DNA of 59,763 nt. Origin: Desulfobacterales bacterium. GTDB taxonomy: Bacteria > Desulfobacterota > Desulfobacteria > Desulfobacterales > JAFDHS01. The stretch lies in NCBI GenBank assembly GCA_030589165.1, contig JAUUWG010000002.1:1-59763 (forward strand). Direction: 5' to 3'. Shown in pieces: positions 20,716 to 55,158 of this stretch; the first letter of the stretch is position 1, and each line of letters opens with the position of its first letter. A program made the translations under genes and the position numbers. The notes below the pieces were generated by a model, which made no database searches, was not told the DNA's origin, and saw nothing but the letters and a program-made list of their open reading frames with translations.

Positions 20716-20761
20716 AGACTATTCCCTGATATCTTAATGTCGAAGTTAACCATTTATCGTT

Positions 20762-22926: not shown

Positions 22927-22934
22927 AGGTAATA

Positions 22935-22974
22935 GGTTAGGGGTTAGGGGTTAGGGGTTAGGGGTTAGGGGTTT
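22935..22974. repeat. Tandem heptamer array (GGTTAGG), about 5.5 copies
   Basis: Read directly from the sequence. It lies between the wzt start codon (22926) and the 3' end of the four-helix-bundle pseudogene. It is complementary to the array at 23328..23367. Confidence 0.9.
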
Positions 22975-23327: not shown

Positions 23328-23367
23328 TACCCCTAACCTCTCACCCCTAACCTCTCACCCCTAACCT
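23328..23367. repeat. Tandem 14-nt array (TCACCCCTAACCTC), about 3 copies, inverse complement of the GGTTAGGGG array
   Basis: Read directly from the sequence. It is followed by hairpin AGGGGC-GAA-GCCCCT (23369..23383), which overlaps the wzm stop codon. Confidence 0.9.
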
Positions 23368-23381
23368 GAGGGGCGAAGCCC

Positions 23382-31666: not shown

Positions 31667-34600
31667 ATGAATAAAAACCATGACATTCAGCTTTTAAAGA
31701 CATCGGACCTGTCCGGATTCCATTATTCCAATCCGGAAGGCATTGCCGTTGTCATGCCTTGCATTGATACCGAAAAGGGCATGACAACGGCCCGGAATCT
31801 TTCTCGGCGGGCTGGCATGCCTTGTAAGGTCCTGATCGTTCATGACAGCCGACACCAAGGGTTCATCAAAACATTGAATGACGCTGCCCTGAAAATATCC
31901 GCTCGCCATATCGTCTATTTGGCTGAAGATGCCTATCCGGGACGCAATTGGCTTGTCTGCGCCTATCACACTTTGGAGAAAAGCGGTAAGGGGTTGCTGG
32001 CTTTTAACGACGGCAAATGGAAGGGACGCATTGCCTCTTTCGGTATGGTCAGAACCAAGTGGGTCAAGTCATTGTATGATGGCAAGCTTTTTTATCCGGG
32101 ATACGAATCCCATGGGGCAGACAACGAACTGACTGTCATTGCCCGGGTCCGGAATATGCATGCGTATAACCCGGACTGTACGCTTGTGGAGTATGACCCG
32201 GTCAAAGACTTTGGCGGTTCCAACCCAAGAGATAGAGAGCTCTTTCAAACTCGCTTTGTAAACGGCTTTGATGGAATGGTGCCCTTGAAAAAGCTTAAAA
32301 AACTGGCAAAAGAGTATAATGTAAAAATGCACCTGAAAAATCATGAAAATTTGACAAAGGGGTACAATGTGATTTGTGAGCCACAAAAAAACAGAATCGG
32401 CATCTCCATTATCATTCATGCACGTAGTGGCGCAACCCCGCTGGATCGCCTGCTCTCTGCTTTTTACCAAGTCAACACCTATCAACCAGTTGAATTCATT
32501 GTCATTGATAATACCCTCAACGATCAGACACGAAAGGTTGTTGCCAAATATGCAGCAAATGATTCTATTCGTCATCTAAAACGTAACGAAAATGAATCCT
32601 TTGCAATTTCCAATAATTTGGCTGTCAAAAAGGCAAACTATCCTTATCTGCTTTTTTTGAGCACGGATATCATCTACACCAGCGATGTGCTGCCCCTGGC
32701 AGTTGCCCAGTTGCAGGATGCGAACATCGGCGTAGTGGGCATTCGGCTGGACGATTCCCCCCCGAGCCTGCCGCCCGGCAATCTCCCCGGCGTACGGCAC
32801 ACGGGCATCAAGTTCGTCCATGATCCGGCCCATGAATTCTACAGGCCTCTTCAGTTGAGTCTGAAAACCATTGAGGAAGCAAAAAAAGTTCCCAGCAGCA
32901 TTTATCCGGCCGTGGCCGGAGCCTTCCTGCTCTGCCGCAAGGGGGAGTTTGAAAAGCTGGACGGATTTTGCGAGGAGTACGACTACGGGTTCGAGGATAT
33001 TGATTTCTGCCTGCGGATAGGCTCGAAGCTGAAGAAGAAGTGTTTGTGCATCAATGAGGTCAGCCTGGGGTATGTTGGCGGAAACACACGGCATATGGAG
33101 CCTGGTGTTGCGGGGACAATTCAGGTCAAAAACTTACAACTGCTGAACAAGAGAGCAGGAGGCCAAATCAGCAAGTTTCCGACCCAAAAAACCGGATCAC
33201 AAAAATCATTCCACATATCCCAAGAACATGCGCCATTCATAAAACAAACATCAACCGTTTTCAGCAAATCATCGCCAAATATTGGCCAACGAATTTTATA
33301 CATTATTCATGATGGTGGTGGTGGTATGGTTTATACATCGTTTGATTTGATGAAATCGATGAATCAACGTAATACATCTTTTTTATTAAAAACAGGCAAA
33401 AAAGAATGGAAGCTTTATGAGTACATTAACAATGAAATAGCTTGTAAACATAAGTATGATTTCAAAATAGACTGGAAGGAAATTGTTGATATTAATAATG
33501 AACGAAAAGCTGCTTTAGATGATATCTATAATAAACTCAACCCTACTCTGATACATTTGAGAGTCCTTATCGGCAACGGACCTTATCTCATTGATTTTTT
33601 TAAAAATAAAAAACTGCCTGTTGTGCTCTCATTTCATGACTTTTCCGCGATATGCCCGAATATACAACTAATCAATAATGGCAAGTTCTGCTATGGAGAT
33701 TGTGAACTGCATCACCATCAAAATGATTGCCATTATTCAAAAAGCTGGTTTGGAAATAGAAGACGACTGCGTGGAGTTTTTCGCTACAATTGGGCTGAGA
33801 GGGTTGCTGAGTCTCTTTCTAAATGTGACGCTTATATCGTAACATCAAATTATACTAAGGAAATTATTTTAAAAAATTATCCGATGTTGGATCCTGAGAA
33901 ATTTCACAATATTGAACATGGTAGAGATTTTGAAAAAAAATATTCATTTTTTAAGGAATATAAGAATGGAAATTGCTGCGATATAATTTTCTTTGGCGCG
34001 CTAAATGAGGCGAAAGGATGTTCACTTGTGTCTGACATCATCAGGATAAATGAGGACAACGACGGGCCACTGAAATTTCATATCATCGGTGGGATCACGA
34101 ATAAGTATAAAAAACGATTTTCCGCGTACAAAAATGTTATTTTATACGGTAAGTATGAACGAGATGATTTAAGAAATTACTTTGAAGAGATTAAACCAAC
34201 CCTTACTATTTTACCATCAATATGTCATGAAACATATTCTCACGCGCTCACGGAGTCATGGGCTTATGGTGTTCCTGTTTTAGGGTCTTCGCTTGGAGCA
34301 ATTGGCGAAAGAATACGCGTTCATGATGGAGGATGGACGTTGGATCCAGTTCATAAACAACAATGGTATAATAAAATATTAAAAATAATCAAGGACAAAA
34401 AGGATTATTTACAAAAACTTAGTAATATTAAACAAATTGATATAAAAAGTCTGGATCATATGGCAGATGAGTATTGTATGGTTTATCGTAACTTGTTGAA
34501 GCCTCAGCAAAAGATTTCATCTGCAGCGAAAATTCAATCGTTCTTAAAAAAAGTAAAATTTAAATCACCAGAAAAGAAAGAGAAAAATAATCAGAAACGG

Positions 34601-37600
34601 AAAAATGAACGTCATGTCAAACTCCTGAGGCTTAAGCTGCTGAACCTTGGTATAACCGAGCGTGCTTTCGCGGACTTGAAAAAGCTGGCAGCGGACGATT
34701 CGGAACCTTACACGCAAAGGCTGGCCGCCTGGGAGTTGGCTTTATGGCACGCCAACAAGTGTAATAGAGAAGACGCCCGTCAATGTTTAGATCTGTTGCC
34801 CATAGCCACTCAAGATGAAAACGATCCGGAGCGTTTGCGCCGGGTTGCCATCCTTAAAGCTGAATGTCATGATATTCTGGGTGACTTAGAGGCTGGAAAA
34901 AAAGTAATCCAACATGCCCTATTTTCAGGCGACGATGCAGATCTTTACTTTGCCGCCGCGAACTTGGAGCCATCGATTTCGGGACGAATAGATTATATCA
35001 ATAAAGCACTTGAGCTATACGGCATTTCAAAAATCACATTTGACCCTATCGCCGGCCGACCACCCTATGACTGCCTGCGCCCAGGGCCTGGAACAAGAAA
35101 GCGGCCACAAATAACCAAGGATTCTTCCAAAGTTACCGTGATAGTACCAGCATATAACGCTGAAAAGACTATACAGACTGCCCTTGATTCCATTCTTGCT
35201 CAAACTTGGACCAACTTGGAAGTATTGGTGGTTGACGATTGCAGCACGGATGGCACCGTGGAAGTGGTCAAAGAGTATGAAATGAAAGATTCCAGGGTTA
35301 GACTGATCAAGGCTGAAACCAACCAGGGGCCTTATGTGGCGCGCAACTTGGCGCTCAAAGCGGCAACAGGAGATTTCGTAACCTGTAATGATGCTGACGA
35401 CTGGTCCCATCCCGAAAAAATTGAAATACAAGCAAAACATCTAATCCAAAATTCAAATTTTTTGGCCAACGTTTCACGATGGGCACGGGTTACCAATGAT
35501 CTGAAATTCTATCGGCGGGGCAATCCTGGTTTTTATATACAATTAAATATATCTTCATTAATGTTTCGTCGTGGGCCTCTGATGAAGGCTTTAGGCTACT
35601 GGGACAGCGTAAGATTCGGTGCTGACACTGAACTGTTCAATCGAATAAAAAAGGTGTTCGGGAAAGATGCGATTGAAGAGAATACGCTTGGACTCCTCTC
35701 TTTCGCAAGATATACTGAGTATTCTCTTACAGAGAATAAGAAATTTGGTTATCCGGGCTTCCCCATGGGTGCGAGAAGTGAATATCGTGAGAGTTATTTG
35801 CACTATCATGGTTTGGCAAACAAACTGCACTACGAATTTCCTATGAAATCTCGACCTTTTCCCGCACCCGGAGTCATGCGTCCGGTCAGAGAGACTAATT
35901 CTTTCTCAAATCGGCATTTTGAAGTAGTCTTCGTATCTGATTTTCGACATCCTGGCAATGCCATCTCTATTGCTGAGGGAATCAAGGCACAAAAAAGAAA
36001 GGGCGTTCGAACCGGCCTTGTCCAGATAGCGCGCTATGACTTGGCCTTAAGAAATTATAATATTGATAAGGAGATACGTGAGTTAATTGATGGTGATCAT
36101 GTTCAACTGCTTGTTTACGGAGAAGAGATCACTTGTGACATGTTGATAATCAGAGATCCTTCCATCCTTCAGGAAAAACAGCGCTATATTCCAGAAGTGA
36201 AAACAGGAAATGTTAGCGTTGTCGTAGAACAAGCGCCTGAGAAAGATTCTGGTTCTGGAGGCCTTGTCTATGACATCAGGCGATGCGCAAAGCATCTTTA
36301 TGAATACTTTGGCAAAAGCGGTGTTTGGCATCCCACTGACGCTCAGGTCCGACATGCGCTTTATAAACTCCACGGCGATGACTTGAAGGCAATAACCCTG
36401 GCAAATGAAGATTGGTCTAATAATACAGATGTAAAAGAATTCCAAAAGACCTCGCGCCCTCAAAGTGGATATAAGATCACTAACCAAAATTTTGATATGG
36501 TGAATGATAATGAAGTTATAAAACTTATGGACGTAAAAGATCTCTGGTCATTTGCATATACGGATACTGAAGGTGTAGCGGTAATCATGCCCTGCATTGA
36601 TACAAAAAAGGGCATGGATACAGCTAGTATCCTTTCCAAAAGGGCTGGAATTGATTGCAAAATATTGATAATTCATGACACCTTATGTCAAGGGTTTATC
36701 AAAACCCTGAACGATACGGCAGCGAGGGTCTCTACCAGATATATTGTATATCTTGCAGAAGATGCCTTTCCGTCGATAGACTGGCTGCGTTGCGCCTATG
36801 ACATCTTGGGAAAAAGCGGTAAAGGACTGCTGGCATTCAATGATGGTAAATGGAGGGGACGTATTGCGGCATTTGGTATGGTCAGGATCGAGTGGGTCAA
36901 AACTTTGTATGGGGGCTTGATATTTTATCCGGAGTATAATGCTCACAAGGCGGATAATGAACTGACGGTCATTGCCCGAGCCCAAGGAATGCATGTGTAT
37001 AATCCGGAATGTACGCTTATAGAGTATGATCCGAATAAGGTGTTTAAAGAAAATATTCCAAAAGATAAAGAGATTTTCAGAAAACGATTTCAACAGGGCT
37101 TTGACGGGCTTGTACCTTTGGAGAAACTCGCGCCAATGGCGAAAGAATATTTTGTCCCATGGAATGTTGAAAAGCCAATGTCAGCACAAAAAAAAACAAA
37201 TTTTAAACAGAAAAATTTTAGCAAAATTGAATCATATTCTCAAGGCGCTAAATCAAATAAATTTACTTTTTTTAAAAAAAAATCTAAGTCAAAAGCTTTA
37301 CGTAATGTTTCGGATACCTTTGCTCTGTATCGTATTATCGGCAATGATTTGCACCCGAGACACAAAAAAAGACAATCACGTGAGAACCTGCGGTTTATAT
37401 TAGAAAATGAGCCTGATTTCGAAAATTGTGAAAAGAGATTCATCATCAATCGCATTATTGATCAGAATGAAGAACAGGCTATCATTAAATTGCTCAAAGA
37501 CCATAAACGTGAATATATACAGATCCGGTTTAATCCCGATGAATATCGCAAAATCGGATTTGACACCGACTGCTTTCCGGAGCCGGGGTACCTTTCCAGT

Positions 37601-40408
37601 AAAAAATTCGAAGCTTTTGACAATATCAAAAAAGATAGAGCTACCGCTGCAATTTACCGTTTGAAAAATAACTATGTTATGAACAACAACGGCGCTCGGA
37701 ACGCCGCGCTGCGTGATGGAAGGAGACGGGCAAAGTGGGTCCTCCCCTGGGACGGCAACTGTTTTATTACAACAAAAGCGTGGGAGCGAATCCATACCGA
37801 TGTCACTGCCTCGCCCCACCTGAAATATTTTGTCGTGCCCATGGCTCGCGTCCTTGATAATACGCAATTGTTATCAAAGGGATTTGCCCCTGCGCCGGTT
37901 GAGGAGCCGCAGATTATCTTTCGCAACGATGCCAAGGAAGAGTTCAACAAAGCTTTTTGTTATGGACGTAGACCCAAGGTGGAGCTTTTCTGGAGGCTCG
38001 GCGTCCCTGGCAAATGGGATCACTGGCCGGAAGACGATCCGTGGGATCAAAAGCGTTTACCGGAATCCATTGAAGCCCGCCAATTCGGGGTGGCAGGCTG
38101 GGTGGCCAGGTTGTTTTCCGGTATGAAGGATTTGGAACTTGAGAACAAGCAAAGTATTACAAAAAGAGTTTTAGCACGAAATGAAGCGATCATTACAACA
38201 CTGAATCATGTGGATACAATGGTTGCAGGCATGTCCAATGATAAGCCCACCAGTTTTCGGTCCGATATTCTGGAAGCAGAGTGCTTGAAATACCAAGCAG
38301 GAGATGACCCGGCGCTTGCCAATGTTGTTGAAAGGCTGATCTTGGATGCCGAAGATGCGCTAACGCACGGGCCCTATTCAGTCACGGACAAAACAACGTT
38401 GCCACCAAGCGGCAACGCAAACGACTACTGGCATCCTGCCCCTTACTGGTGGCCCAACCCGGATACGCAAGACGGTTTGCCTTATATTCGAAAAGACGGG
38501 GAGCGGGCGCCCGGCACCAGTATGTATGAGGCGGAAAGTGATAAGTATGATCGCACGCGTTTGCAGCGTGTGTTCGATGATTCCTTCATTCTGGCGCTGG
38601 CATGGAAGTTTTCAGGTGAAAAGAAGTATGCTGAGCATGGCGCACGAATTCTGGAACGTTTTTTCGTGGATCCAATTACGCGAATGACGCCTCACTTAAA
38701 ATACGGCCAAGTCAGAATGGGACACAATAAGAATATTGGTTCCAGCACCGGGATCATCGAGATGAAGGATATGTATTATTATCTCGATGCCGTGCGCATG
38801 ATGACCGCGGCCGGTGTTGTTTCAAGTGACGATCTCGGTAGTTTTAAAGATTGGCTGAAAACATATTTGGACTGGCTGTTGTATTCCCCCCAGGGAAGAG
38901 TCGAATGCGGATCGGCCAACAATCATGGCGCCTGCTATGATCTTCAAGTATCTTCCATTGCCTCTTTTTTGAATGATAAATCAGTCCTGTTTGAAACCTT
39001 GGCTCGCGCTCAGTCCAGAATCTCTCAGCAATTTGCACCTGACGGCTCACAGCCCGATGAATTAAAACGGAAAACGACAGCGCATTATTGCCTTTTTAAT
39101 TTTCAAAGCTGGTTAAACCTGGCAGAAATAGCCTCTCGGTATAATACGGATTTCTGGTCCTATGAAGCACCAAATGGTGCAAGCTTGATTAAGGGTGCGC
39201 AATGGCTTCTGGGTCATATGGGGAAAAAGTGGCCCTATCAGCAGATAGATGATTTTGACGCAGAACGCTTTTACCCCATATGGTTTGCTGTTTCTGCCGT
39301 CTCAATTAATCCACTGGGAGTCACCAATTTACCAGACTCAAAATACAAGGTAAAACCGAGATTTTTCCCACATGACGGGATTCGACCGTTTTGGAATTTG
39401 GGAGCCCAGTGCCACTCTTGTCACCACGATTCGGGTAGTAGCAGCCAACAGGTCAGTAACACCACAAAAACCAGCGTCAGATCTCAGAAGGCAGTTGCCA
39501 AAATGGATATAAATATGGTTGAATCACAACAAGTTTTCATTAACATAGACGATGCAATGAAATACGCTGAAGAAGCTATGAAGCAAAAAGACTGGTCTGA
39601 GGCGGAGAAATGCTGGCAAGAAATTTTGAATGTTTTTAGCACTACAGCAAAACCGCGTGTTACAGAGATTGCAGATGCTATGTCTGCAAAAGCTGAATGG
39701 CAAGACTATCGGTATTGCAATATCTGCGGTTGCCCGCTATTTGGCAAAATGGGATCAAGAAAAAATGTAAAATGTTTAAATTGTGGATCTTTAGAGCGAA
39801 CCAGGTTGCTATATTTACATTTACAAAATTTTGAATTAATTACTCCAGATATAAAAGTTTTTCATCTGGCGCCAGAGAAAGCGCTGTACCAAGCTATATC
39901 AAAAATTATTCCTCCGTCAAATTATTTCGTTACGGACTATGATCCAAGTAGATATAGTTTTGCGAAGGGGATACAAAAGTTTGATTTATGTAATGATGTT
40001 GAGGGATTGCCTGACAATTTTTTTGATCTTATTATTCACAGCCATGTTATGGAACATGTACCTTGTAATTATAGTTTTGTTCTTAAGCATTTACATCGGG
40101 CCCTTAAAGACAATGGAAGACATCTTTGCGTGATACCGTTCATGGCAGGCTACTATGATGAATGTTTTGCCCCTCTCAGTGTTGAGGAGGCAAAAACGCG
40201 GTTTGGTCAATTTGATCATGTCAGACGTATTGGCACTAATGATATTCATAATACTCTTGGTCGTGTCATTCCAATTGATCCTGATTACGATGCTACAAAA
40301 CTATTTTCACCAGAGATTCTTTTAAAAGCCAACATTCCAGAGAATTGCTGGAAAGGTTTGACAATTCATACAGTTCTTCTACTCAAAAAGGAAGATTACA
40401 AGCTCTAA
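31667..40408 (+). CDS. Giant multi-module glycan-biosynthesis protein (2,913 aa)
   Basis: Uninterrupted ORF. Approximate modules:
- A1, unknown GT-A-like: 31690-32320
- GT2: 32393-33100
- GT-B/GT4: 33285-34500 (HETYSHALTESWAYGVPVL)
- TPR-like: 34650-35040
- GT2: 35129-35800 (VIVPAYNAEKTI..VVDDCSTDGT)
- unknown: 35909-36420
- A2, duplicate of A1: 36500-37150
- unknown B domain: 37315-38130
- alginate-lyase (PL5)-fold domain: 38250-39405 (NNHGACYD)
- Zn-ribbon + class I methyltransferase: 39706-40405. Confidence 0.85.
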   Translation: MNKNHDIQLLKTSDLSGFHYSNPEGIAVVMPCIDTEKGMTTARNLSRRAGMPCKVLIVHDSRHQGFIKTLNDAALKISARHIVYLAEDAYPGRNWLVCAYHTLEKSGKGLLAFNDGKWKGRIASFGMVRTKWVKSLYDGKLFYPGYESHGADNELTVIARVRNMHAYNPDCTLVEYDPVKDFGGSNPRDRELFQTRFVNGFDGMVPLKKLKKLAKEYNVKMHLKNHENLTKGYNVICEPQKNRIGISIIIHARSGATPLDRLLSAFYQVNTYQPVEFIVIDNTLNDQTRKVVAKYAANDSIRHLKRNENESFAISNNLAVKKANYPYLLFLSTDIIYTSDVLPLAVAQLQDANIGVVGIRLDDSPPSLPPGNLPGVRHTGIKFVHDPAHEFYRPLQLSLKTIEEAKKVPSSIYPAVAGAFLLCRKGEFEKLDGFCEEYDYGFEDIDFCLRIGSKLKKKCLCINEVSLGYVGGNTRHMEPGVAGTIQVKNLQLLNKRAGGQISKFPTQKTGSQKSFHISQEHAPFIKQTSTVFSKSSPNIGQRILYIIHDGGGGMVYTSFDLMKSMNQRNTSFLLKTGKKEWKLYEYINNEIACKHKYDFKIDWKEIVDINNERKAALDDIYNKLNPTLIHLRVLIGNGPYLIDFFKNKKLPVVLSFHDFSAICPNIQLINNGKFCYGDCELHHHQNDCHYSKSWFGNRRRLRGVFRYNWAERVAESLSKCDAYIVTSNYTKEIILKNYPMLDPEKFHNIEHGRDFEKKYSFFKEYKNGNCCDIIFFGALNEAKGCSLVSDIIRINEDNDGPLKFHIIGGITNKYKKRFSAYKNVILYGKYERDDLRNYFEEIKPTLTILPSICHETYSHALTESWAYGVPVLGSSLGAIGERIRVHDGGWTLDPVHKQQWYNKILKIIKDKKDYLQKLSNIKQIDIKSLDHMADEYCMVYRNLLKPQQKISSAAKIQSFLKKVKFKSPEKKEKNNQKRKNERHVKLLRLKLLNLGITERAFADLKKLAADDSEPYTQRLAAWELALWHANKCNREDARQCLDLLPIATQDENDPERLRRVAILKAECHDILGDLEAGKKVIQHALFSGDDADLYFAAANLEPSISGRIDYINKALELYGISKITFDPIAGRPPYDCLRPGPGTRKRPQITKDSSKVTVIVPAYNAEKTIQTALDSILAQTWTNLEVLVVDDCSTDGTVEVVKEYEMKDSRVRLIKAETNQGPYVARNLALKAATGDFVTCNDADDWSHPEKIEIQAKHLIQNSNFLANVSRWARVTNDLKFYRRGNPGFYIQLNISSLMFRRGPLMKALGYWDSVRFGADTELFNRIKKVFGKDAIEENTLGLLSFARYTEYSLTENKKFGYPGFPMGARSEYRESYLHYHGLANKLHYEFPMKSRPFPAPGVMRPVRETNSFSNRHFEVVFVSDFRHPGNAISIAEGIKAQKRKGVRTGLVQIARYDLALRNYNIDKEIRELIDGDHVQLLVYGEEITCDMLIIRDPSILQEKQRYIPEVKTGNVSVVVEQAPEKDSGSGGLVYDIRRCAKHLYEYFGKSGVWHPTDAQVRHALYKLHGDDLKAITLANEDWSNNTDVKEFQKTSRPQSGYKITNQNFDMVNDNEVIKLMDVKDLWSFAYTDTEGVAVIMPCIDTKKGMDTASILSKRAGIDCKILIIHDTLCQGFIKTLNDTAARVSTRYIVYLAEDAFPSIDWLRCAYDILGKSGKGLLAFNDGKWRGRIAAFGMVRIEWVKTLYGGLIFYPEYNAHKADNELTVIARAQGMHVYNPECTLIEYDPNKVFKENIPKDKEIFRKRFQQGFDGLVPLEKLAPMAKEYFVPWNVEKPMSAQKKTNFKQKNFSKIESYSQGAKSNKFTFFKKKSKSKALRNVSDTFALYRIIGNDLHPRHKKRQSRENLRFILENEPDFENCEKRFIINRIIDQNEEQAIIKLLKDHKREYIQIRFNPDEYRKIGFDTDCFPEPGYLSSKKFEAFDNIKKDRATAAIYRLKNNYVMNNNGARNAALRDGRRRAKWVLPWDGNCFITTKAWERIHTDVTASPHLKYFVVPMARVLDNTQLLSKGFAPAPVEEPQIIFRNDAKEEFNKAFCYGRRPKVELFWRLGVPGKWDHWPEDDPWDQKRLPESIEARQFGVAGWVARLFSGMKDLELENKQSITKRVLARNEAIITTLNHVDTMVAGMSNDKPTSFRSDILEAECLKYQAGDDPALANVVERLILDAEDALTHGPYSVTDKTTLPPSGNANDYWHPAPYWWPNPDTQDGLPYIRKDGERAPGTSMYEAESDKYDRTRLQRVFDDSFILALAWKFSGEKKYAEHGARILERFFVDPITRMTPHLKYGQVRMGHNKNIGSSTGIIEMKDMYYYLDAVRMMTAAGVVSSDDLGSFKDWLKTYLDWLLYSPQGRVECGSANNHGACYDLQVSSIASFLNDKSVLFETLARAQSRISQQFAPDGSQPDELKRKTTAHYCLFNFQSWLNLAEIASRYNTDFWSYEAPNGASLIKGAQWLLGHMGKKWPYQQIDDFDAERFYPIWFAVSAVSINPLGVTNLPDSKYKVKPRFFPHDGIRPFWNLGAQCHSCHHDSGSSSQQVSNTTKTSVRSQKAVAKMDINMVESQQVFINIDDAMKYAEEAMKQKDWSEAEKCWQEILNVFSTTAKPRVTEIADAMSAKAEWQDYRYCNICGCPLFGKMGSRKNVKCLNCGSLERTRLLYLHLQNFELITPDIKVFHLAPEKALYQAISKIIPPSNYFVTDYDPSRYSFAKGIQKFDLCNDVEGLPDNFFDLIIHSHVMEHVPCNYSFVLKHLHRALKDNGRHLCVIPFMAGYYDECFAPLSVEEAKTRFGQFDHVRRIGTNDIHNTLGRVIPIDPDYDATKLFSPEILLKANIPENCWKGLTIHTVLLLKKEDYKL

Positions 40409-44570: not shown

Positions 44571-45467
44571 ATGCACGATTGGCCATTTGTTTCCGTGATT
44601 ATTCCCGTACATAATGATCCTTACGGAATACAGCAAACGCTTCGATCATTGTTCAGGCAAGACTACCCCAAAAAACAGTATGAGATTATTGTTGTCGATA
44701 ATAATTCAAATGATGATACAATCTCAATGATTCAGAAAACAGTATCTGAATTTGAAGGTAATGTCATTGTTGAAACTGAAGAAATGCAAGGTTCGTACGC
44801 TGCGCGGAACAAAGGATTCAGTGTGTCACGTGGTGAAATTATTGCTTTTATTGATTCGGACATGACTGTTGGTTCAGACTGGATTTATAAGGGTGTTCAA
44901 TGTTTCACAAATAAAAAAAAGGATTATGTCGGTTGTAATATTGAAATATATTCATCAAAGAAAATACCGTCTTTATGGGAAAAATATGATATTATTTTGG
45001 GATTTCCCATAAAAAATTATATGAAAATCGATGGATACGCGCCAACAGCATGTCTCTTTGTAGCAAGGAACGTCATCGAAAAAGCCGGTAATTTTGATTC
45101 CAGGCTTTTATCTGGCGGTGATTGTGAATTTGGCAATCGTGCACGTAGCCACGGTTTTAAAATGTACTTTGACCAGGACAATATCATGTATCATCCAGCC
45201 AGGAATTCTTTTTCATCACTCTTTCAAAAACAAAAAAGGGTTACCCCGGGTCAGATACGCCTGCGCAGGCTTTTTCCTGAAAGATTTCCGCATAACCGAT
45301 TCAAGGATGTCGCCATTTGCTGTATTCACCTGTTCCCTGTCGCAAGTCCTGCGGTATTGTTTAAATTGTCCCGTTCAAGGGTTGACTTTTTCCCCTTGTT
45401 TGGCATTTTTTATGCTTTGCGATTGTATACGTGCTGGTTCAAATTTGCCAATAAATGTTTTTTTTGA
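44571..45467 (+). CDS. Glycosyltransferase family 2
   Basis: VSVIIPVHNDPYGIQQTLRSL...IIVVDNNSNDDT and FIDSDM motifs. Confidence 0.85.
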   Translation: MHDWPFVSVIIPVHNDPYGIQQTLRSLFRQDYPKKQYEIIVVDNNSNDDTISMIQKTVSEFEGNVIVETEEMQGSYAARNKGFSVSRGEIIAFIDSDMTVGSDWIYKGVQCFTNKKKDYVGCNIEIYSSKKIPSLWEKYDIILGFPIKNYMKIDGYAPTACLFVARNVIEKAGNFDSRLLSGGDCEFGNRARSHGFKMYFDQDNIMYHPARNSFSSLFQKQKRVTPGQIRLRRLFPERFPHNRFKDVAICCIHLFPVASPAVLFKLSRSRVDFFPLFGIFYALRLYTCWFKFANKCFF

Positions 45468-45510: not shown

Positions 45511-47784
45511 ATGCACTTTTGGGAAACTTTCAAAAAACTAGTGAGTCAGGTTCCTGGATCAGTTACTCTGTATCATTTTCTGAAGGGACTGCACGGACCT
45601 GAAAAAGTGGTGCGGACCTCTCTGGACCGAGGATCATATCCAACGGTTACTCTTTCTAATTTAAAAGAAAAATACCTGCAATGCCCAATATCCAATGAAC
45701 CTGACACATTTGTGCTCTACCGAATACTTGGCAATGATCTGGTGCCCCGCCATCGCAAAGGTCAAACCCGAGAAAATCTCGGGTTCATCCTTGAAAATGA
45801 ATCGGAGTTTCCGGAATGCGAGAAACGCTTTGTGGTCAACCGTATTGTCGATCCGGGCGAAGAAAAAATCATTCTGCGCATGTTGAAAGAAGCGAACCGC
45901 TCCTATCTCCACATCCCTTTTCATCAGGATGAATACCTGAACGTGAGCTGGGACATTGAGGGGGTGCCTGTAGAATTCGTTCCCTACTCCCGCCGTTTCA
46001 AGGCTCTCAGCCCGGATGAACAAGGGCGAGTACTGATGCGTCTTTACCGGCATAAAAACAACTATGTGATGAACAATAACGAGGCACGCAACGCGGCCCT
46101 TGCTCAAGGCAAGGGACTGGCCAAATGGGTATTGCCCTGGGATGGCAACTGCTTTATCACAAAACAGGGATGGGATGACATTGTTACAACCGTGCAAGCC
46201 TCACCTGAAATCCCGTATTTTGTGATACCCATGGCCCGAATCACGGATAACCGTCTGGTATTGGATCCGGATTTCAGCCCAGCGGCAGTGGAAGAACCCC
46301 AGATCCTGTTTCGAAGGGACAGCTCGCTTTCCTTTAACGAGTCCTTTTTTTACGGGCGCCGGCCCAAGGTAGAATTGCTCTGGCAGCTGGGCATACCAGG
46401 AAACTGGGATGAATGGAAGCTGGAGCCCTGGGACCTGCCCGGACCCCGCTATGCAAAGGAGGCAGGTGCTTTTTCTTATGCCGGTTGGGTGGCCAGATTG
46501 AATTCAGGTCAGGAGCGATTGGAAAAGGATCCCGTCCAGGGCAAGGTTGATCGAGGTGTGGCACGGGTCGAGGCCGTCATCGGCTTGCTGGATCATCTGG
46601 ACACACAGGCAAGGATCGGGAGACAGGATAATGCACTCGTAATCATCGGAAAAGCATTGGCGCCCTGTGATAAGACGAGCGATTCTCACAACACGCTCCT
46701 TGATAAACTTCGGGAAGAGGCTGAACAGGCCGTGGTGCAAGGTCCCTACTCTGTTCTGGACAAGACCACCCGGGCTCCAAGCGGAGACCCTCATGATTAT
46801 TGGCATCCCGCACCGTACTACTGGCCCAACCCCCTGACTCCATCGGGCCGGCCCTACGTGAGCCGCGACGGACAGCGGGTTCCCGGGACCCGGTTATATG
46901 AACCACTCAGTGATCAATATGACCGAACCCGCCTGCAACGCCTTTTTGATGACACTATGGTGCTGGCGCTGGCCTGGCATCATCTGGGGGAACAACGCTT
47001 TGCCCAACACGGCGCCCGATTGATCCGTCGCTGGTTTCTGGACCCCGATTCGGCCATGAATCCACACCTCACCTATGCCCAGGTACGACTGGGACACAAT
47101 AATGACAAGGGAAGCAGTTCCGGCATTATCGAGATGAAGGATCTATACTTTTTTCTGGACGCGGTCAAACTGCTTGTGCGCGCCGGAATAATTTCACCTG
47201 AAGAACACTCTCGGTTACAGGAATGGTTTGAGCATTACCTTCACTGGTTGAGAACCAGTCCGCAGGGACAGAAAGAGCGAGCAGCACAAAACAATCACGG
47301 CGTTTACTATGATCTGCAGGTAGCATCCATTGCTGCCTTCCTGGGGGAGACCCTGCTGCTCCGTGATACCCTGCGCGACAGCCGGTTCAGGCTGCTGCAG
47401 CATTTTGATGCCCAGGGACGACAACCGGAAGAGATGAAACGAACCACAACTGCCCATTATTGCTGTTTTAATCTTCAGGGGTGGATTCATTTAGCCCAAT
47501 TGGCTGCAACTTTTCATGAAGATTTGTGGCGTTTTGAAGGACAGGATGGCCAAGGCATACGAAAAGGTATGTGGTGGCTTCTTGCATACCTGGGCAGGGA
47601 CTGGCCTTACCAGCAGATCGATGCATTTGATCACGAGCGTTTTTATCCCATTTACCATGCCTGCAAGGCCACCTATGGGTTGCCTTCGGAATTGGAGTCG
47701 CTGAACGTTCCTGATGCGGAGGCAATCAAGCCCCTGTTCCACCCCCACGATGGCATTCGACCCTTCTGGCAGTTATCTGGTTGA
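45511..47784 (+). CDS. Unknown B domain + alginate-lyase (PL5)-fold domain protein; a standalone paralog of giant-ORF residues encoded at about 37315-39405
   Basis: Shared blocks: LYRILGNDLVPRHRKGQTRENLGFILENE, NNYVMNNNEARNAAL, AKWVLPWDGNCFIT, GPYSVLDKTTRAPSG..DYWHPAPYYWPNP, YDRTRLQRLFDD, NNHGVYYDLQV, HPHDGIRPFW. No signal peptide is evident. Confidence 0.7.
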   Translation: MHFWETFKKLVSQVPGSVTLYHFLKGLHGPEKVVRTSLDRGSYPTVTLSNLKEKYLQCPISNEPDTFVLYRILGNDLVPRHRKGQTRENLGFILENESEFPECEKRFVVNRIVDPGEEKIILRMLKEANRSYLHIPFHQDEYLNVSWDIEGVPVEFVPYSRRFKALSPDEQGRVLMRLYRHKNNYVMNNNEARNAALAQGKGLAKWVLPWDGNCFITKQGWDDIVTTVQASPEIPYFVIPMARITDNRLVLDPDFSPAAVEEPQILFRRDSSLSFNESFFYGRRPKVELLWQLGIPGNWDEWKLEPWDLPGPRYAKEAGAFSYAGWVARLNSGQERLEKDPVQGKVDRGVARVEAVIGLLDHLDTQARIGRQDNALVIIGKALAPCDKTSDSHNTLLDKLREEAEQAVVQGPYSVLDKTTRAPSGDPHDYWHPAPYYWPNPLTPSGRPYVSRDGQRVPGTRLYEPLSDQYDRTRLQRLFDDTMVLALAWHHLGEQRFAQHGARLIRRWFLDPDSAMNPHLTYAQVRLGHNNDKGSSSGIIEMKDLYFFLDAVKLLVRAGIISPEEHSRLQEWFEHYLHWLRTSPQGQKERAAQNNHGVYYDLQVASIAAFLGETLLLRDTLRDSRFRLLQHFDAQGRQPEEMKRTTTAHYCCFNLQGWIHLAQLAATFHEDLWRFEGQDGQGIRKGMWWLLAYLGRDWPYQQIDAFDHERFYPIYHACKATYGLPSELESLNVPDAEAIKPLFHPHDGIRPFWQLSG

Positions 47785-47955
47785 AACCCTCCCATGGATC
47801 ATGGCAAGTTATTGAAGCATATCTTGAAACTGAAAAAAACTACTTTGCCAATTGTTGGTGTATTTATTATAGGAGAAATAACGTGAGTTTCTCCCAATTA
47901 TTGGATACATTGAATTCATTAAACACAAATAATCGAAAATGAAAATGGACGTTGG

Positions 47956-48741
47956 ATGTTAAGACTTAGCAAAGATATCTGGGAAAACCGTCACGCCTTG
48001 CGCAGTCAATTTTATGTAAACACCAAAACCACGGTGGCAACCACCAAATTGGGAATGCTCTGGTGGATTTTAGATCCTTTGTTTCTCATGCTGATTTATT
48101 ATTTTGTGGTAAAAGTCATTTTTAACCGCGGCGGGCCCAATTACCATCTATTTCTTCTCTGCGGCCTTGTAACGTATCAGTTTTTTTCCCGTTCGATTGC
48201 TTTATGCACGGGAGCCCTTGTTCGCAGCGAAGGCCTGATCAAGCAGGCATCCCTGCCCATGGTAATTTATGTAATCATTTCCCCCCTGGTGCAGGCCTTC
48301 TTTTGCATAATCGGCTTCATCGTCATCATGATCTGGAATTATCATGCGTTGGGATTGCACACCTTGAGTATTGTAGTTCCAGTGTTCTTGACGATTATGA
48401 TATCGTTTACCGCGGGGTTGTTTTTGTCAATATTTGAAGTCTATATCAGAGACACCGGTAAATTGATCTCCTATGTGTTGCGTTTCGGTATGTATCTAAG
48501 CCCTGTTTTATACGCTTCGGACAGAATTTATGACAATCCGTCCATTCCTGAATACGCCAAGGCCCTTTATTCGTTGAACCCCATGGTTCATGTCATAACC
48601 GCTGTTAAAGACCTTCTTTTTCATGGGAGGATGTTCGATCCCGTTCCCCTGCTGATTGTCTTTGCAGCTGTTTTTGCTATCATGCAGTTCGGATTGTTCT
48701 TTTTCCGCAGGTCATCACCCTATGTTCCCAAAATGCTGTAA
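47956..48741 (+). CDS. ABC-2 type polysaccharide exporter permease (second copy)
   Basis: 261 aa with 6 TM segments. The N-terminal RSQFYVNTKTTVATTKLGMLWWILDPL pattern is Wzm/KpsM-like. Confidence 0.85.
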   Translation: MLRLSKDIWENRHALRSQFYVNTKTTVATTKLGMLWWILDPLFLMLIYYFVVKVIFNRGGPNYHLFLLCGLVTYQFFSRSIALCTGALVRSEGLIKQASLPMVIYVIISPLVQAFFCIIGFIVIMIWNYHALGLHTLSIVVPVFLTIMISFTAGLFLSIFEVYIRDTGKLISYVLRFGMYLSPVLYASDRIYDNPSIPEYAKALYSLNPMVHVITAVKDLLFHGRMFDPVPLLIVFAAVFAIMQFGLFFFRRSSPYVPKML

Positions 48742-48769
48742 AACCATTGCGCAGGTTTGATTTTGACTT

Positions 48770-49597
48770 ATGACTGAATTTTCAAATGACACGTGTCAAC
48801 CATTATCGAAAAACCTTTCACCCATAGTCGTCTTTGATAATGTAAGTTTATGCTTTCGCAAGCATTCATCCATTTTTGAGCTGTTTTTTAAAAACAAAAA
48901 CAGAGATAAGAATTTCTGGGCACTGCGGGGTGTTTCTTTCTGCATCCATGAGGGTGAAACCCTGGGTATTATCGGTCGCAACGGATCAGGAAAGAGCACA
49001 TTATCCCTGGTCTGTACAAAAGTATACCAGCCGGACAAAGGAGAGATAGAGATTAACGGCCGGGTACAGCTTCTGGCCCTGGGAGTAGGGTTTCAAAAAC
49101 AGCTTTCCGGCCGGGAAAACGTTTACATCAGCGGCAGCCTGCTGGGCCTTAAAACATCTGAAATAAGAGAGCGAATGGATGAAATAGAAGCGTTTGCCGA
49201 TATCGGAGAGTTCATGGATGAGCAGGTGCGCACGTATTCCAGCGGGATGAGAAGCCGCCTGGCATTTGCCATTGCCACTGCCATCCGCCCGGACATCCTT
49301 ATCCTGGACGAGGTAATGGCAACGGGTGACAACGCTTTTCGGGATAAGGCAATGGATAGAATGAAAAACCTGCACTCACTGACCAAGTGCGCCATTGTCA
49401 TTTCACACAGTCCTGCCCAGCTTAAACAACTCTGCAATAAAGTAATCTGGCTGGAAAAAGGAAGAATGGTGATGCAGGGGGAACCGACTCCGGTTTTGGA
49501 TGCATATCAGGCATTTTGCAAGAATCCCAAAGAATGGATGGAAAAACATCCGGAATATTTACATGATTCGAATATTACAACATCAAATCAATCTTAA
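48770..49597 (+). CDS. Polysaccharide ABC exporter ATP-binding protein (short form, no Wzt_C tail)
   Basis: Walker A GRNGSGKSTL, signature YSSGMRSRLAF, Walker B ILILDEVM. Confidence 0.85.
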   Translation: MTEFSNDTCQPLSKNLSPIVVFDNVSLCFRKHSSIFELFFKNKNRDKNFWALRGVSFCIHEGETLGIIGRNGSGKSTLSLVCTKVYQPDKGEIEINGRVQLLALGVGFQKQLSGRENVYISGSLLGLKTSEIRERMDEIEAFADIGEFMDEQVRTYSSGMRSRLAFAIATAIRPDILILDEVMATGDNAFRDKAMDRMKNLHSLTKCAIVISHSPAQLKQLCNKVIWLEKGRMVMQGEPTPVLDAYQAFCKNPKEWMEKHPEYLHDSNITTSNQS

Positions 49598-54255: not shown

Positions 54256-55158
54256 TTGGAGACCATGAGTATGAAAATTTTAAAAATAGCCCTCATATAT
54301 TTTTTTTTGGCCCTTTGTATGGCCCCGGCAGTTCCTGCGGACGACTATTTGGATGCCTCTTTTTACCTGTGGCGGCTGATCAATGAGACCAGAAATAAAC
54401 CGTTACAAACCTTGGCAAAGTTTGGGATCGAGGAACAATCGGCCCGCGAAGCCTTGGGAGCGGAGGGCTGGATTCTGGATCAGGGGCTTCCGCCGCTGGC
54501 CTGGAACCAGAATCTCTTTGACTCGGCCTGGGGTCATAATCAGGATATGATCGACAATCTTTATTACGCCTACAATTCCCCGGATGGCACCACTGTTACC
54601 GAAAGAATCGCGGCTGCCGGATACGATGCCCTGAATACGGGTGAGAGTCTGGGCGCCCTGCTTTTTGACACGTATCTGGAGCCGATGGAAGCGGTGGATA
54701 TCATCTTCACCAACATGCTGAAGGACGAACTGGCCCCCGGCAACCCTTTGGCAAGGAATATCTTCAATCCCGCTTTTACCGAGATCGGGATCGCGCTTAC
54801 GGCGGCCCGGCTTGATCTCGGGGATGATCTTTCTACGAACGCCTACGTTGCCGTGGCCGACTTCGGGCAGCCGCTTCAGCCGCGGGCCTTTCTGCTGGGC
54901 AACGTCTATCACGATCCTGATGGCGACGGGACCATGAATCCGGCGGATGCGGCTTCCGGGGTGAATGTGGTACTCAGACTACTGGCTCCGAATATTGAGC
55001 TGGAAATGCCGGTCGGGCCTCTCGGCGCTTACCAGTTTGAGCTTCCCGCCGGTTTTCTGCTGCTTGAGGCAAGGAATGCCGCCGGGCAGGTTGTGGCCCG
55101 GAGGAGCGTTTTCAGGCAGGAGAACAATCAGCTGGTGGACTTGAGGGTCGGGGATTGA
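54256..55158 (+). CDS. Secreted CAP (SCP/PR-1, YkwD-like) domain protein
   Basis: Signal peptide MKILKIALIYFFLALCMAPAVPA. CAP pattern LINETRNKP...LAWNQNLFDSAWGHNQDMI...SPDGTTVTERIAAAGY...GESLG. The track start is TTG 54256. ATG 54271 after GGAGA is more likely. Confidence 0.75.
   Translation: METMSMKILKIALIYFFLALCMAPAVPADDYLDASFYLWRLINETRNKPLQTLAKFGIEEQSAREALGAEGWILDQGLPPLAWNQNLFDSAWGHNQDMIDNLYYAYNSPDGTTVTERIAAAGYDALNTGESLGALLFDTYLEPMEAVDIIFTNMLKDELAPGNPLARNIFNPAFTEIGIALTAARLDLGDDLSTNAYVAVADFGQPLQPRAFLLGNVYHDPDGDGTMNPADAASGVNVVLRLLAPNIELEMPVGPLGAYQFELPAGFLLLEARNAAGQVVARRSVFRQENNQLVDLRVGD

What the first reader, a model, noticed from the sequence alone, without database searches (positions are those of the whole stretch)
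45511..47784. Unknown B domain + alginate-lyase-fold module present twice: standalone here, and embedded in the giant ORF at 37315-39405
Both copies share long collinear blocks:
- LYRI(I/L)GNDL.PRH.K.Q.RENL.FILENE
- CEKRF(I/V)(I/V)NRI(I/V)D
- NNYVMNNN.ARNAAL
- AKWVLPWDGNCFIT
- GPYSV.DKTT..PSG...DYWHPAPY.WPNP
- YDRTRLQR.FDD
- NNHG..YDLQV.SIA.FL
- HPHDGIRPFW

Established: NNH followed by a downstream R...Y is the catalytic signature region of PL5 alginate lyases (AlgL, A1-III).

Seen in the sequence: the standalone copy has no signal peptide, and both copies sit in a biosynthetic operon.

Inference: the lyase fold is probably not degradative here. It could act as a uronate C5-epimerase-like enzyme or as a chain-end-forming or releasing enzyme, coupled to an uncharacterised transferase-like domain.
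Basis: partly seen in the sequence, partly recalled or inferred. Interest (0 to 1): 0.75.

Follow-up and report, generated by a model that had tools for sequence, protein, structure and literature searches.

The report
Glycosyltransferase-like domain fused to cytoplasmic lyase-fold domain
A sugar-polymer gene cluster carries two old copies of an unstudied two-part enzyme: a new glycosyltransferase-like domain joined to a lyase-type domain whose active site is intact, which stays inside the cell and probably remodels acidic sugars during synthesis rather than degrading them.

Summary
ORF 45511-47784 (757 aa) and residues 1878-2580 of the 2913-aa ORF 31667-40408 share 51% identity over 705 residues.

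- **C-terminal half:** It matches Pfam Alginate_lyase. By sequence and predicted fold it is PL38-like, not PL5. All nine active-site residues of the solved enzyme BoPL38 are kept in both copies, and in 83-87 of 87 fused sequences aligned.
- **B domain:** It has no Pfam, NCBIfam or PDB sequence match. A confident model places it in the GT-A glycosyltransferase fold, with D-G-N where the DXD motif normally sits. It forms a discrete family of about 1,450 clusters.
- **Location and context:** The protein has no signal peptide. The window locus is an ABC-transporter-dependent glycan locus. Homologues in many phyla sit in glycan-synthesis loci, often near UDP-glucose dehydrogenase.
- **Natural variant:** A syntenic Desulfobacteraceae locus, 84-85% identical in DNA, has the same gene without the lyase half.

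My best reading is a cytoplasmic pair: a transferase plus a domain that modifies uronic acid residues, most likely by C5 epimerisation. BoPL38 itself shows both lyase and epimerase activity. A true chain-end-forming lyase is not excluded. I found no paper describing this fusion.

The parts
45511..47784 (+). 757-aa ORF: standalone B + PL38-like protein with no signal peptide
   Evidence: ORF list, translation, Pfam. AF2 model has pLDDT 94.5 and pTM 0.92. Hydropathy shows no signal or membrane segment.
45688..46617 (+). B domain (aa 60-369): divergent GT-A-fold glycosyltransferase-like domain. D211-G212-N213 sits at the usual DXD position, at the end of strand 206-211.
   Evidence: No Pfam hit even at E = 10 and no PDB sequence hit. 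Foldseek returns mainly GT-A glycosyltransferases. Invariant residues come from 147- and 76-sequence alignments.
46681..47781 (+). PL38-like (alpha/alpha) barrel domain (aa 391-757). Its residues Y436, D453, Q524, E589, N595, H596, R644, H649 and Y650 correspond to BoPL38 Y91, D108, Q173, E236, N242, H243, R292, H297 and Y298.
   Evidence: phmmer against PDB: 3nfv E 3e-66, BoPL38 8bdq E 3e-45. Foldseek TM 0.82-0.84. Residue roles come from the BoPL38 paper.
46619..47924 (+). Cassette holding the lyase-domain coding part. It is present here and replaced by 176 bp in the otherwise 84-85% identical syntenic locus L083.
   Evidence: blastn: window 44557-46618 matches L083 9062-11108, and window 47925-49560 matches L083 11285-12942. 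tblastn finds no lyase remnant in L083.
31667..40408 (+). 2913-aa multidomain ORF. Order: X domain, GT2-like, GT4, GT2, X domain, B, PL38-like, C-terminal methyltransferase.
   Evidence: Pfam and NCBIfam, self-comparison, BLASTP to the 757-aa protein.
37298..38230 (+). Embedded B domain (giant ORF aa 1878 to about 2188)
   Evidence: Aligned to aa 60-369 of the 757-aa protein. No Pfam hit at E = 10.
38309..39406 (+). Embedded PL38-like domain (giant ORF aa about 2215-2580) with all nine BoPL38-equivalent residues kept
   Evidence: Pfam PF05426 E 2e-72 at aa 2238-2517. Catalytic columns checked.
44571..45467 (+). 298-aa GT2 glycosyltransferase directly upstream. It is the most frequently conserved neighbour of B + lyase genes.
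   Evidence: Pfam GT2. Its neighbour cluster is present in 31 of 79 loci. It is 89% identical to the L083 orthologue.
47956..49597 (+). Wzm-like ABC-2 permease (47956-48741) and Wzt-like ATPase (48770-49597) directly downstream. They mark an ABC-transporter-dependent pathway, in which the glycan is completed in the cytoplasm.
   Evidence: Pfam ABC2_membrane and ABC_tran. NCBIfam partial matches to Wzm/KpsM and Wzt/TagH, all below curated cut-offs.

Best explanation
**Shown.** The 757-aa protein and residues 1878-2580 of the giant ORF are two anciently diverged copies of a widespread two-domain cytoplasmic module.
- The N-terminal B domain is a divergent GT-A-fold, glycosyltransferase-like domain from a family not in Pfam.
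- It is modelled as one compact unit with a PL38-like (alpha/alpha) barrel.
- That barrel keeps the complete residue set used by BoPL38 to pull the C5 proton from a uronic acid.
- The module sits in an ABC-transporter-dependent glycan assembly locus.

**Inferred.**
- The B domain transfers a sugar from a nucleotide sugar onto the lipid-linked chain, either a uronic acid or the sugar next to one.
- The barrel domain then acts on the uronic acid in the nascent chain before export.
- Its most likely reaction is C5 epimerisation (for example GlcA to IdoA, or ManA to GulA), not cleavage.
- The barrel is an optional modifying add-on, since the B domain works without it in close relatives.
- Two modules in one locus would then handle two different uronic acid positions in the repeat.
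For: - **Paralogy:** 51% identity over 705 aa.
- **Model:** The full-length AF2 model has pLDDT 94.5 and pTM 0.92.
- **Barrel assignment:** Foldseek TM is 0.82-0.84 to 3nnb/3nfv and BoPL38, against about 0.6 to PL5. phmmer gives E 3e-66 and 3e-45.
- **Active site:** The nine BoPL38 active-site residues are present in both copies and in 83-87 of 87 fused sequences aligned.
- **Epimerase precedent:** BoPL38 is reported to catalyse M-to-G epimerisation as well as lysis, using the Tyr/His pair.
- **B domain fold:** Foldseek returns mainly GT-A glycosyltransferases from PDB (E 1e-4 to 1e-2). From BFVD it returns a true homologue in a Megaviridae 'GT2' protein (E 4.5e-15, 27% identity).
- **Localisation:** No signal peptide or membrane segment in the query or in 110 homologues.
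- **Context:** The window holds Wzm/Wzt, GT2/GT4 genes and methyltransferase and sulfotransferase-like domains. Related loci carry a GT2 neighbour in 31 of 79, UDP-glucose dehydrogenase in 16 of 79, Bac_transf, Alg13/14-like genes and sulfotransferases.
- **Recurrent pairing:** B and lyase-like domains recur as B-lyase, lyase-B-lyase and B-lyase-B. B-only genes also sit next to separate Hepar_II_III, Alginate_lyase or pectate-lyase/epimerase-fold genes.
- **Optional cassette:** The lyase half is a clean presence/absence cassette between loci 84-85% identical in DNA.
Against: - No activity has been measured for any member, and no glycan structure is linked to any of these loci.
- Sequence cannot separate epimerase from lyase, because the same residues serve both reactions.
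- The window contains no UDP-glucose dehydrogenase, and only about 30% of related loci have one within 10 kb.
- The DXD position reads D-G-N, so metal-dependent nucleotide-sugar use by the B domain is not assured.
- Foldseek TM scores for the B domain against solved glycosyltransferases are low, at 0.3-0.4.
- Many B proteins carry degenerate helical tails that have lost the catalytic residues. The barrel may therefore also have a non-catalytic role.
Confidence: 0.45

Rival explanations
1. The barrel is a true cytoplasmic lyase used in synthesis. After the chain is built, it cleaves at a 4-linked uronic acid. This would leave a 4,5-unsaturated non-reducing end as a chain terminator or cap, or would trim or release the chain from a primer before ABC export.
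For: - The full lyase residue set is kept.
- All characterised PL38 enzymes are lyases on alginate or beta-1,4-glucuronan.
- In the giant ORF the module lies just before a C-terminal methyltransferase. By analogy from my own knowledge of O-antigen systems, that is where chain-terminating domains sit in ABC-dependent polymerases.
- The N-terminal barrel of lyase-B-lyase proteins keeps only the Tyr side of the active site (Y, N, R, Q). In BoPL38 that is enough for syn-elimination, but an epimerase would seem to need both Tyr and His.
Against: - The same fusion occurs in loci with Bac_transf and Wzy_C genes, which suggest Wzy-type repeat-unit assembly, and in two-gene units without ABC transporters. 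Terminal capping has no obvious role there.
- Cleaving a chain just made costs energy.
- I found no report of a native glycan with a biosynthetically made unsaturated uronate end (uninformative).
- The orthologous locus works without the domain.
Confidence: 0.25
2. The barrel is mainly an acceptor-binding or scaffolding domain that holds the acidic chain for the B-domain transferase. Catalysis by the barrel would be irrelevant or vestigial.
For: - Many B proteins carry shortened helical tails weakly similar to the barrel core that have lost the catalytic residues.
- B-only proteins are common.
- The model shows a tight two-domain unit.
Against: In full-length fusions the nine active-site residues are kept in 83-87 of 87 sequences, at only 55-65% overall identity. 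They are also kept in both window paralogues, which are 51% identical. That degree of retention is expected for a working active site.
Confidence: 0.1
3. Ordinary degradative or housekeeping lyase. It would be either an AlgL-like enzyme clearing stray polymer, or a cytoplasmic oligo-uronate lyase for catabolism, fused by chance to an unrelated domain.
For: - The Pfam name and the source annotations read 'alginate lyase family protein'.
- Lyases encoded inside biosynthetic loci are known, for example AlgL (my own knowledge) and a periplasmic depolymerase in an ABC-transporter-dependent capsule system (abstract listed).
Against: - No signal peptide in 110 homologues, so it is not periplasmic.
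- One copy is embedded between cytoplasmic transferase domains.
- The fusion to B is conserved across phyla and in several arrangements.
- Neighbours are biosynthetic genes. No sugar-uptake or uronate-catabolism genes appeared among the recurrent neighbour families I annotated.
- The locus has a separate exported glycosidase-like protein (BNR_4) that could serve turnover.
Confidence: 0.07

Closest known systems
BoPL38 (Bacteroides ovatus CP926, PL38; PDB 8bdq, 9fh*) and BACOVA_01668 (PDB 3nfv/3nnb)
   Same: Same (alpha/alpha) barrel, with TM 0.82-0.84. Significant sequence similarity (E 3e-45 and 3e-66, 26-33% identity). All nine active-site residues correspond. BoPL38 has both lyase and M-to-G epimerase activity.
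   Different: BoPL38 is a roughly 400-residue degradative alginate lyase of a gut bacterium. The module here is cytoplasmic, fused to a GT-A-like domain and encoded in glycan-synthesis loci. It also has an extended loop with invariant Y470-D471-R472.
PL5 alginate lyases (A1-III, AlgL)
   Same: Related (alpha/alpha) barrel with an Asn-His ... Arg ... Tyr catalytic arrangement. AlgL is also encoded in a biosynthetic operon (my own knowledge).
   Different: No PL5 structure reaches E <= 1 by sequence, and TM is only about 0.6. AlgL is periplasmic and is not fused to a transferase.
Polymer-level uronate C5 epimerases with lyase-like folds (dermatan sulfate epimerase 1, heparan sulfate Glce, AlgG/AlgE); archaeal Agl32/VNG1058H
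   Same: Same concept: a lyase-type or alpha-barrel active site abstracts the C5 proton of a chain-bound uronic acid during biosynthesis. Loss of the archaeal enzyme also greatly reduced sulfation of the glycan (the rest is my own knowledge).
   Different: No detectable sequence relationship was tested or found. Those enzymes belong to different fold subtypes, and none is fused to a GT-A domain. Epimerase activity here is only inferred.
Multidomain polymerases and terminators of ABC-transporter-dependent O-antigen or capsule pathways (WbdA/WbdD, WbbB, K4CP, PmHS2)
   Same: Large cytoplasmic proteins that string several transferase modules together with a terminal methyltransferase, exported by Wzm/Wzt. 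K4CP and PmHS2 GT-A domains are among the Foldseek hits for the B domain.
   Different: To my knowledge none of these carries a lyase-fold domain. The B domain has no sequence-level link to GT2.

Membership tests
PL38 polysaccharide lyase family | Significant sequence similarity to characterised PL38 members | tested here: met
   phmmer against BoPL38 (8bdq) gives E 3e-45 over aa 400-715. Against 3nfv it gives E 3e-66.
PL38 polysaccharide lyase family | (alpha/alpha) barrel fold superposable on BoPL38 | tested here: met
   Foldseek TMt is 0.82-0.84 with rmsd 2.3-3.2 A over about 360 columns.
PL38 polysaccharide lyase family | Catalytic and substrate-positioning residues Y91, D108, Q173, E236, N242, H243, R292, H297, Y298 | tested here: met
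   All nine are present in both window copies, and in 83-87 of 87 fused sequences aligned.
PL38 polysaccharide lyase family | Beta-eliminative cleavage of alginate or beta-1,4-glucuronan | not testable with these tools
   This needs an enzyme assay. The four characterised PL38 activities are listed.
   No PL5 chain appears among PDB hits at E <= 1. PL5 structures are found only by fold, at E 1e-5 to 1e-3 and TM about 0.6.
   No signal peptide in the query or in 110 homologues.
GT-A fold glycosyltransferases | Rossmann-like GT-A fold | tested here: met
   The B-domain model has pLDDT 95. Nearly all top PDB and BFVD matches are GT-A transferases, including GalS1, SpsA, PmHS2, K4CP and TarS/TarP. 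A few nucleotidyltransferases appear at lower rank.
GT-A fold glycosyltransferases | DXD metal and nucleotide-sugar binding motif after strand beta-4 | tested here: inconclusive
   The position reads W210-D211-G212-N213. D211 and G212 are invariant and N213 is at least 90% conserved. Only one acidic residue is present.
GT-A fold glycosyltransferases | Membership of GT2 or another described family by sequence | tested here: not met
   No Pfam hit at E <= 10 for five members, no NCBIfam hit, and no PDB hit with a 76-sequence profile. CAZy itself could not be queried.
GT-A fold glycosyltransferases | Sugar transfer from a nucleotide sugar | not testable with these tools
   This needs an assay.
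Polymer-level uronate C5 epimerases | Two groups on opposite faces of C5, one to abstract and one to return the proton (Tyr/His pair) | tested here: met
   Y650 and H596, equivalent to BoPL38 Y298 and H243, are present. The BoPL38 paper links this pair to its epimerase activity.
Polymer-level uronate C5 epimerases | Formation of the C5 epimer without chain cleavage | not testable with these tools
   This needs NMR or product analysis.
ABC-transporter-dependent glycan assembly locus | Wzm/Wzt-type ABC-2 exporter next to cytoplasmic multidomain transferases | tested here: met
   ABC2_membrane and ABC_tran lie at 47956-49597. GT2, GT4 and methyltransferase domains lie upstream.

The most novel reading that the evidence does not exclude
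The B + PL38-like module is an 'add-then-epimerise' machine. A founding member of a new glycosyltransferase family would be coupled to the first cytoplasmic, PL38-derived, polymer-level uronate C5 epimerase. Bacteria from many phyla would use it, along with at least one giant virus for the B domain, to build IdoA- or GulA-containing polymers. These polymers would often be sulfated and glycosaminoglycan-like. The barrel cassette would be swapped in and out to switch the polymer's stereochemistry.
Probability: 0.3. Interest if true: 0.8.

Novelty: new variant of a known kind. Interest (0 to 1): 0.62.

Why it matters
- **Annotation:** In public records, named members of this widespread protein family are called only 'alginate lyase family protein' or 'hypothetical protein'. 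That wording implies degradation. The evidence here points to a cytoplasmic biosynthetic role.
- **New transferase family:** The family gives a clear candidate for a new glycosyltransferase family of about 1,450 clusters at 50% identity, with no Pfam model.
- **Epimerase question:** It is also a candidate for a bacterial enzyme that epimerises or trims uronic acids within a growing chain. Only one bacterial glucuronyl C5 epimerase comes to mind from my own knowledge, and enzymes of this kind are wanted for making heparin-like and alginate-like polymers.
- **Ready-made experiment:** Cultured carriers are available (Halomonas, Chromohalobacter, Microbulbifer, Fulvimarina pelagi, Mesorhizobium loti, Bacillaceae). 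Near-identical loci with and without the barrel cassette would make a ready comparison once a related pair is cultured or expressed; the pair seen here comes from uncultured sequence.

Tried and rejected
- **Sequence searches for the B domain.** I tried Pfam at E <= 10, NCBIfam, and a 76-sequence profile against PDB. The only hit was a chance-level methyltransferase at E 0.055.
- **PL5 assignment.** Rejected in favour of PL38-like.
- **Recent tandem duplication.** Rejected. The embedded module is 59-63% identical to modules in other giant proteins but only 51% identical to the standalone copy. GC content also differs, 0.47 against 0.52.
- **Assembly or frameshift artefact for the fusion.** Rejected, because 110 full-length homologues have the same architecture.
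- **Obligatory link to UDP-glucose dehydrogenase.** Not met. It is present in 14 of 51 full-flank loci and absent from the window.
- **Literature.** Seven full-text searches found no paper on this fusion or on the B domain. The archaeal GlcA C5 epimerase paper concerns an unrelated fold. The Moraxella capsule paper was irrelevant.
- **Conserved roughly 595-aa neighbour.** It has about 6 membrane segments plus a soluble domain. It has no Pfam or PDB match and no counterpart in the window.
Full report
**1.

ORF 45511-47784 (+, 757 aa) and ORF 31667-40408 (+, 2913 aa) are both open. BLASTP aligns residues 60-757 of the first with residues 1878-2580 of the second. The alignment has 361/705 identities (51%), 9 gaps and E = 0. 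Both copies hit Pfam PF05426 Alginate_lyase, at E 5e-70 and 2e-72. Nothing in Pfam or NCBIfam hits the N-terminal 'B' part.

**2. The lyase-like half is PL38-like**

- **Sequence.** phmmer against all PDB sequences finds BACOVA_01668 (3nfv, E 3e-66) and the PL38 enzyme BoPL38 (8bdq and 9fh*, E 3e-45). No PL5 structure is found at E <= 1.
- **Fold.** A full-length AlphaFold2 model built on 147 sequences is very confident (pLDDT 94.5, pTM 0.92). Foldseek gives TM 0.82-0.84 to 3nnb/3nfv and BoPL38. It gives only about 0.6 to PL5 A1-III and AlgL.
- **Active site.** The BoPL38 paper names Y91, D108, Q173, E236, N242, H243, R292, H297 and Y298 as the active-site set. It also reports that BoPL38 epimerises mannuronate to guluronate in addition to cleaving. 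Counting along the printed alignment, these correspond to Y436, D453, Q524, E589, N595, H596, R644, H649 and Y650.
- **Conservation.** All nine are kept in both window copies, and in 83-87 of the 87 fused sequences aligned.

R ... Y' signature is therefore real and intact. The family assignment should be PL38-like rather than PL5.

**3. The B domain has a GT-A fold and belongs to a new family**

- **No sequence match.** A 76-sequence profile finds nothing in the PDB by sequence. Five members give no Pfam hit even at E = 10.
- **Fold.** A B-only model (pLDDT 95.1) matches mainly GT-A glycosyltransferases in the PDB. The hits include GalS1, SpsA, heparosan synthase 2, chondroitin polymerase K4CP, TarS/TarP and ThuS, all weakly (E 1e-4 to 1e-2, TM 0.3-0.4, at most 13% identity).
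- **Viral homologue.** In BFVD the top hit is a genuine homologue inside a Megaviridae 'GT2' protein (E 4.5e-15, 27% identity, TMq 0.61). GT-A-type proteins follow.
- **Motif.** The strand order fits GT-A. The usual DXD position, at the end of strand 206-211, reads W-D211-G212-N213, with D211 and G212 invariant.
- **Family size.** An exhaustive profile search finds 1,457 representatives at 50% identity with E <= 1e-3, of which 814 have E <= 1e-30. This is a discrete family. Many members lie inside proteins of 600-2600 aa.

**4. Location and context in the window**

- **Cytoplasmic.** The 757-aa protein has no signal peptide or membrane segment. The same holds for 110 full-length homologues.
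- **Gene order.** The + strand array from about 26.6 to 53.6 kb contains, in order:
  - two GT4 genes;
  - an 801-aa protein with a sulfotransferase-like N-terminus;
  - the giant ORF;
  - an 815-aa paralogue of the 801-aa protein carrying Methyltransf_24;
  - a BNR_4 protein;
  - a 298-aa GT2;
  - the 757-aa gene;
  - Wzm and Wzt;
  - a TPR protein, a GT4 and a GT2.
- **Giant ORF domains.** The order is X domain, GT2-like, GT4, GT2, X domain, B, PL38-like, methyltransferase.

This is the layout of an ABC-transporter-dependent glycan pathway. In such pathways the chain is finished in the cytoplasm (my own knowledge of these pathways).

**5. Relatives elsewhere**

- **Spread.** The roughly 750-aa fusion is found at 55-65% identity in Halomonas, Chromohalobacter, Microbulbifer, Thioalkalivibrio, Fulvimarina, Pirellulaceae and Desulfosalsimonas. 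Where a source names it, the name is 'alginate lyase family protein' or 'hypothetical protein'. A scan of one genome per species returned 238 confirmed stretches. These add Rhodobacteraceae, Mesorhizobium loti/ciceri/amorphae, Devosia, Hyphomonas, Bacillaceae, Rikenellaceae, Chloroflexia, cyanobacteria, Trueperaceae and others.
- **Neighbours.** I clustered neighbouring ORFs over 79 loci. The commonest partners are the 298-aa GT2 (31 loci), an unknown membrane protein of about 595 aa (17), UDP-glucose dehydrogenase (16), a 708-aa protein with a GT28 C-terminal domain (14), NAD epimerase/dehydratase (11), Wzt (11), Bac_transf (7) and sulfotransferase (6).
- **Recurring layouts:**
  - Halomonadaceae type: B+lyase, unk595, GT2, Alg14-like, Alg13-like, Bac_transf, with UDP-glucose dehydrogenase upstream.
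  - Rhodobacteraceae/Devosia type: a two-gene unit of the 708-aa GT28C protein plus a B+lyase protein of about 940-1570 aa.
  - Bacillaceae type: EPS loci with UDP-glucose dehydrogenase.
  - Giant-protein type: loci with 2600-2900-aa proteins, with Wzm/Wzt alongside in the window and Rikenellaceae, and a sulfotransferase alongside in Hyphomonas and Parvibaculum.
- **Individual look-ups** agree with this picture.

**6. The two domains travel together but can be separated**

- **Arrangements.** They include B alone (about 365 aa, very common), B-lyase, lyase-B-lyase, B-lyase-B and GT28C-B-lyase.
- **B-only genes.** The three B-only genes I looked up on long contigs sit in capsule-type ABC loci that include a Poly_export protein. 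Two of the three loci also carry separate lyase- or epimerase-fold genes (Hepar_II_III; Alginate_lyase and Pect-lyase_RHGA_epim).
- **Variant active sites.** In lyase-B-lyase proteins the N-terminal barrel has lost H596, E589 and H649 but keeps Y, D, Q, N, R and Y. Many 'B + 250 aa' proteins carry a shortened helical tail with no catalytic residues.
- **Cassette.** The most telling case is the Desulfobacteraceae MAG contig L083.
  - It is collinear with the window at 84-85% DNA identity. Window 44557-46618 matches L083 9062-11108, and window 47925-49560 matches L083 11285-12942.
  - Its GT2, Wzm and Wzt are 82-89% identical in protein.
  - Window 46619-47924, which encodes the barrel, is replaced there by 176 bp, giving a 400-aa B-only orthologue.
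  - The break falls right after the linker helix.
  
  The barrel is therefore a modular, dispensable add-on to a B-domain function that stands alone.

**7. The two copies are old paralogues**

The embedded module is 59-63% identical to modules embedded in other giant proteins. One of these is a 2592-aa protein with the module at the same position. It is only 51% identical to the 757-aa copy. GC content is 0.47 against 0.52, within an operon that ranges from 0.38 to 0.55. This is not a recent duplication.

**8. How it most likely works**

*Shown:* a cytoplasmic, biosynthetic, two-domain module with a GT-A-like domain and a PL38-like domain that has a complete C5-proton-abstracting site.

*Inferred:* the B domain transfers a sugar onto the nascent chain, and the barrel then acts on a uronic acid in that chain. 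I favour C5 epimerisation at about 0.45, for four reasons:
- The nearest solved enzyme does both reactions with the same Tyr/His pair.
- Cleaving a chain just made is wasteful.
- The fusion occurs in loci of several assembly types, not only ABC-dependent ones, which argues against a specific chain-terminating role.
- An optional cassette fits a modifying enzyme.

A true chain-end-forming or trimming lyase remains a serious rival at about 0.25. It is helped by the Tyr-only barrel variants and by the adjacent methyltransferase in the giant ORF. A mainly binding role (about 0.1) and ordinary degradation (about 0.07) are less likely.

**9. Novelty**

Seven full-text literature searches found nothing on this fusion or on the B domain. 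The PL38 literature I read treats the family as degradative. Lyase-fold enzymes recruited to biosynthesis are known, for example AlgL, dermatan sulfate epimerase and Glce (my own knowledge), and so are GT-A transferases. I therefore rate this a new variant of a known kind. It includes a probable new glycosyltransferase family and a testable candidate for a bacterial chain-level uronate epimerase.

Noticed in passing
window 31667-32368 and 36500-37201 (+): The giant ORF has a second internal duplication. An 'X domain' of about 234 aa is present twice (aa 1-234 and 1612-1845), 60% identical, with no Pfam or NCBIfam hit. Its motifs (VVMPCID, YLAEDA) look GT-A-like. The second copy lies directly before the B + lyase module. 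Relatives occur in 5 of 51 related loci.
   Followed up: partly
window 43030-44478 (+): A 482-aa BNR_4 protein (Pfam E 1e-65) partially matches the NCBIfam alpha-L-rhamnosidase BT3686 model (339 bits, below the 700 cut-off). Unlike the B + lyase protein, it has an N-terminal signal-like hydrophobic segment. It may be the exported trimming or turnover enzyme of this locus.
   Followed up: partly
window 29174-31579 and 40567-43014 (+): The 801-aa and 815-aa proteins are paralogues (E about 1e-69). The first has a weak Sulfotransfer_3 N-terminus and the second has TPR plus Methyltransf_24. Relatives flank B or B + lyase genes in L028 and L083. This hints that the polymer is sulfated and methylated.
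   Followed up: partly
window 46619-47924 vs L083 11109-11284: There is a domain-level presence/absence difference between two loci 84-85% identical in DNA. The lyase-domain coding part is present in the window and absent in a Desulfobacteraceae MAG. This also suggests the window comes from a close relative of that organism.
   Followed up: yes
window 9438-24266 (- strand): A second, divergent glycan or lipid locus lies on the other strand. It holds a Wzm/Wzt pair (21685-24266), a 928-aa triple-GT2 protein, a PIG-L deacetylase, a GNAT, a B12-binding radical SAM enzyme, a methyltransferase, a UbiA prenyltransferase and an Uma2 endonuclease-like gene.
   Followed up: no
window 25036-26211 (-) and 1029-1946 (-): An IS605 OrfB/TnpB-type gene sits between the two divergent loci, and an IS200-like Y1 transposase domain lies near the window start. 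Together with the GC mosaic of the operon (0.38-0.55 per gene), this suggests modular assembly by horizontal transfer.
   Followed up: no
L025 13101-14885; also L003 8205-9956, L004 8178-10004, L007 11141-12904: A conserved unknown protein of about 595 aa has about 6 N-terminal membrane segments plus a roughly 340-aa soluble domain, with no Pfam or PDB match. It lies next to B + lyase in 17 loci (Halomonadaceae, Fulvimarina, Chromatiales, Desulfohalobiaceae) but is absent from the window.
   Followed up: partly
L033, L040, L047, L052, L054, L055, L064: In Rhodobacteraceae and Devosia, a B + lyase-containing protein (about 1430-1570 aa in Rhodobacteraceae, 942 aa in Devosia) is paired only with a roughly 700-aa protein carrying a GT28 C-terminal domain. 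No other recognisable glycan genes are nearby. This may be a minimal two-protein polymer synthase.
   Followed up: no
BFVD entry A0A5J6VJ98_2 (Megaviridae environmental sample): A giant-virus multidomain 'GT2' protein contains a true B-domain homologue (27% identity, E 4.5e-15), so the family reaches into nucleocytoplasmic large DNA viruses.
   Followed up: no
window 55579-58242 (+): An 887-aa ORF downstream of the locus has no Pfam match. A 300-aa CAP-domain protein lies at 54256-55158.
   Followed up: no
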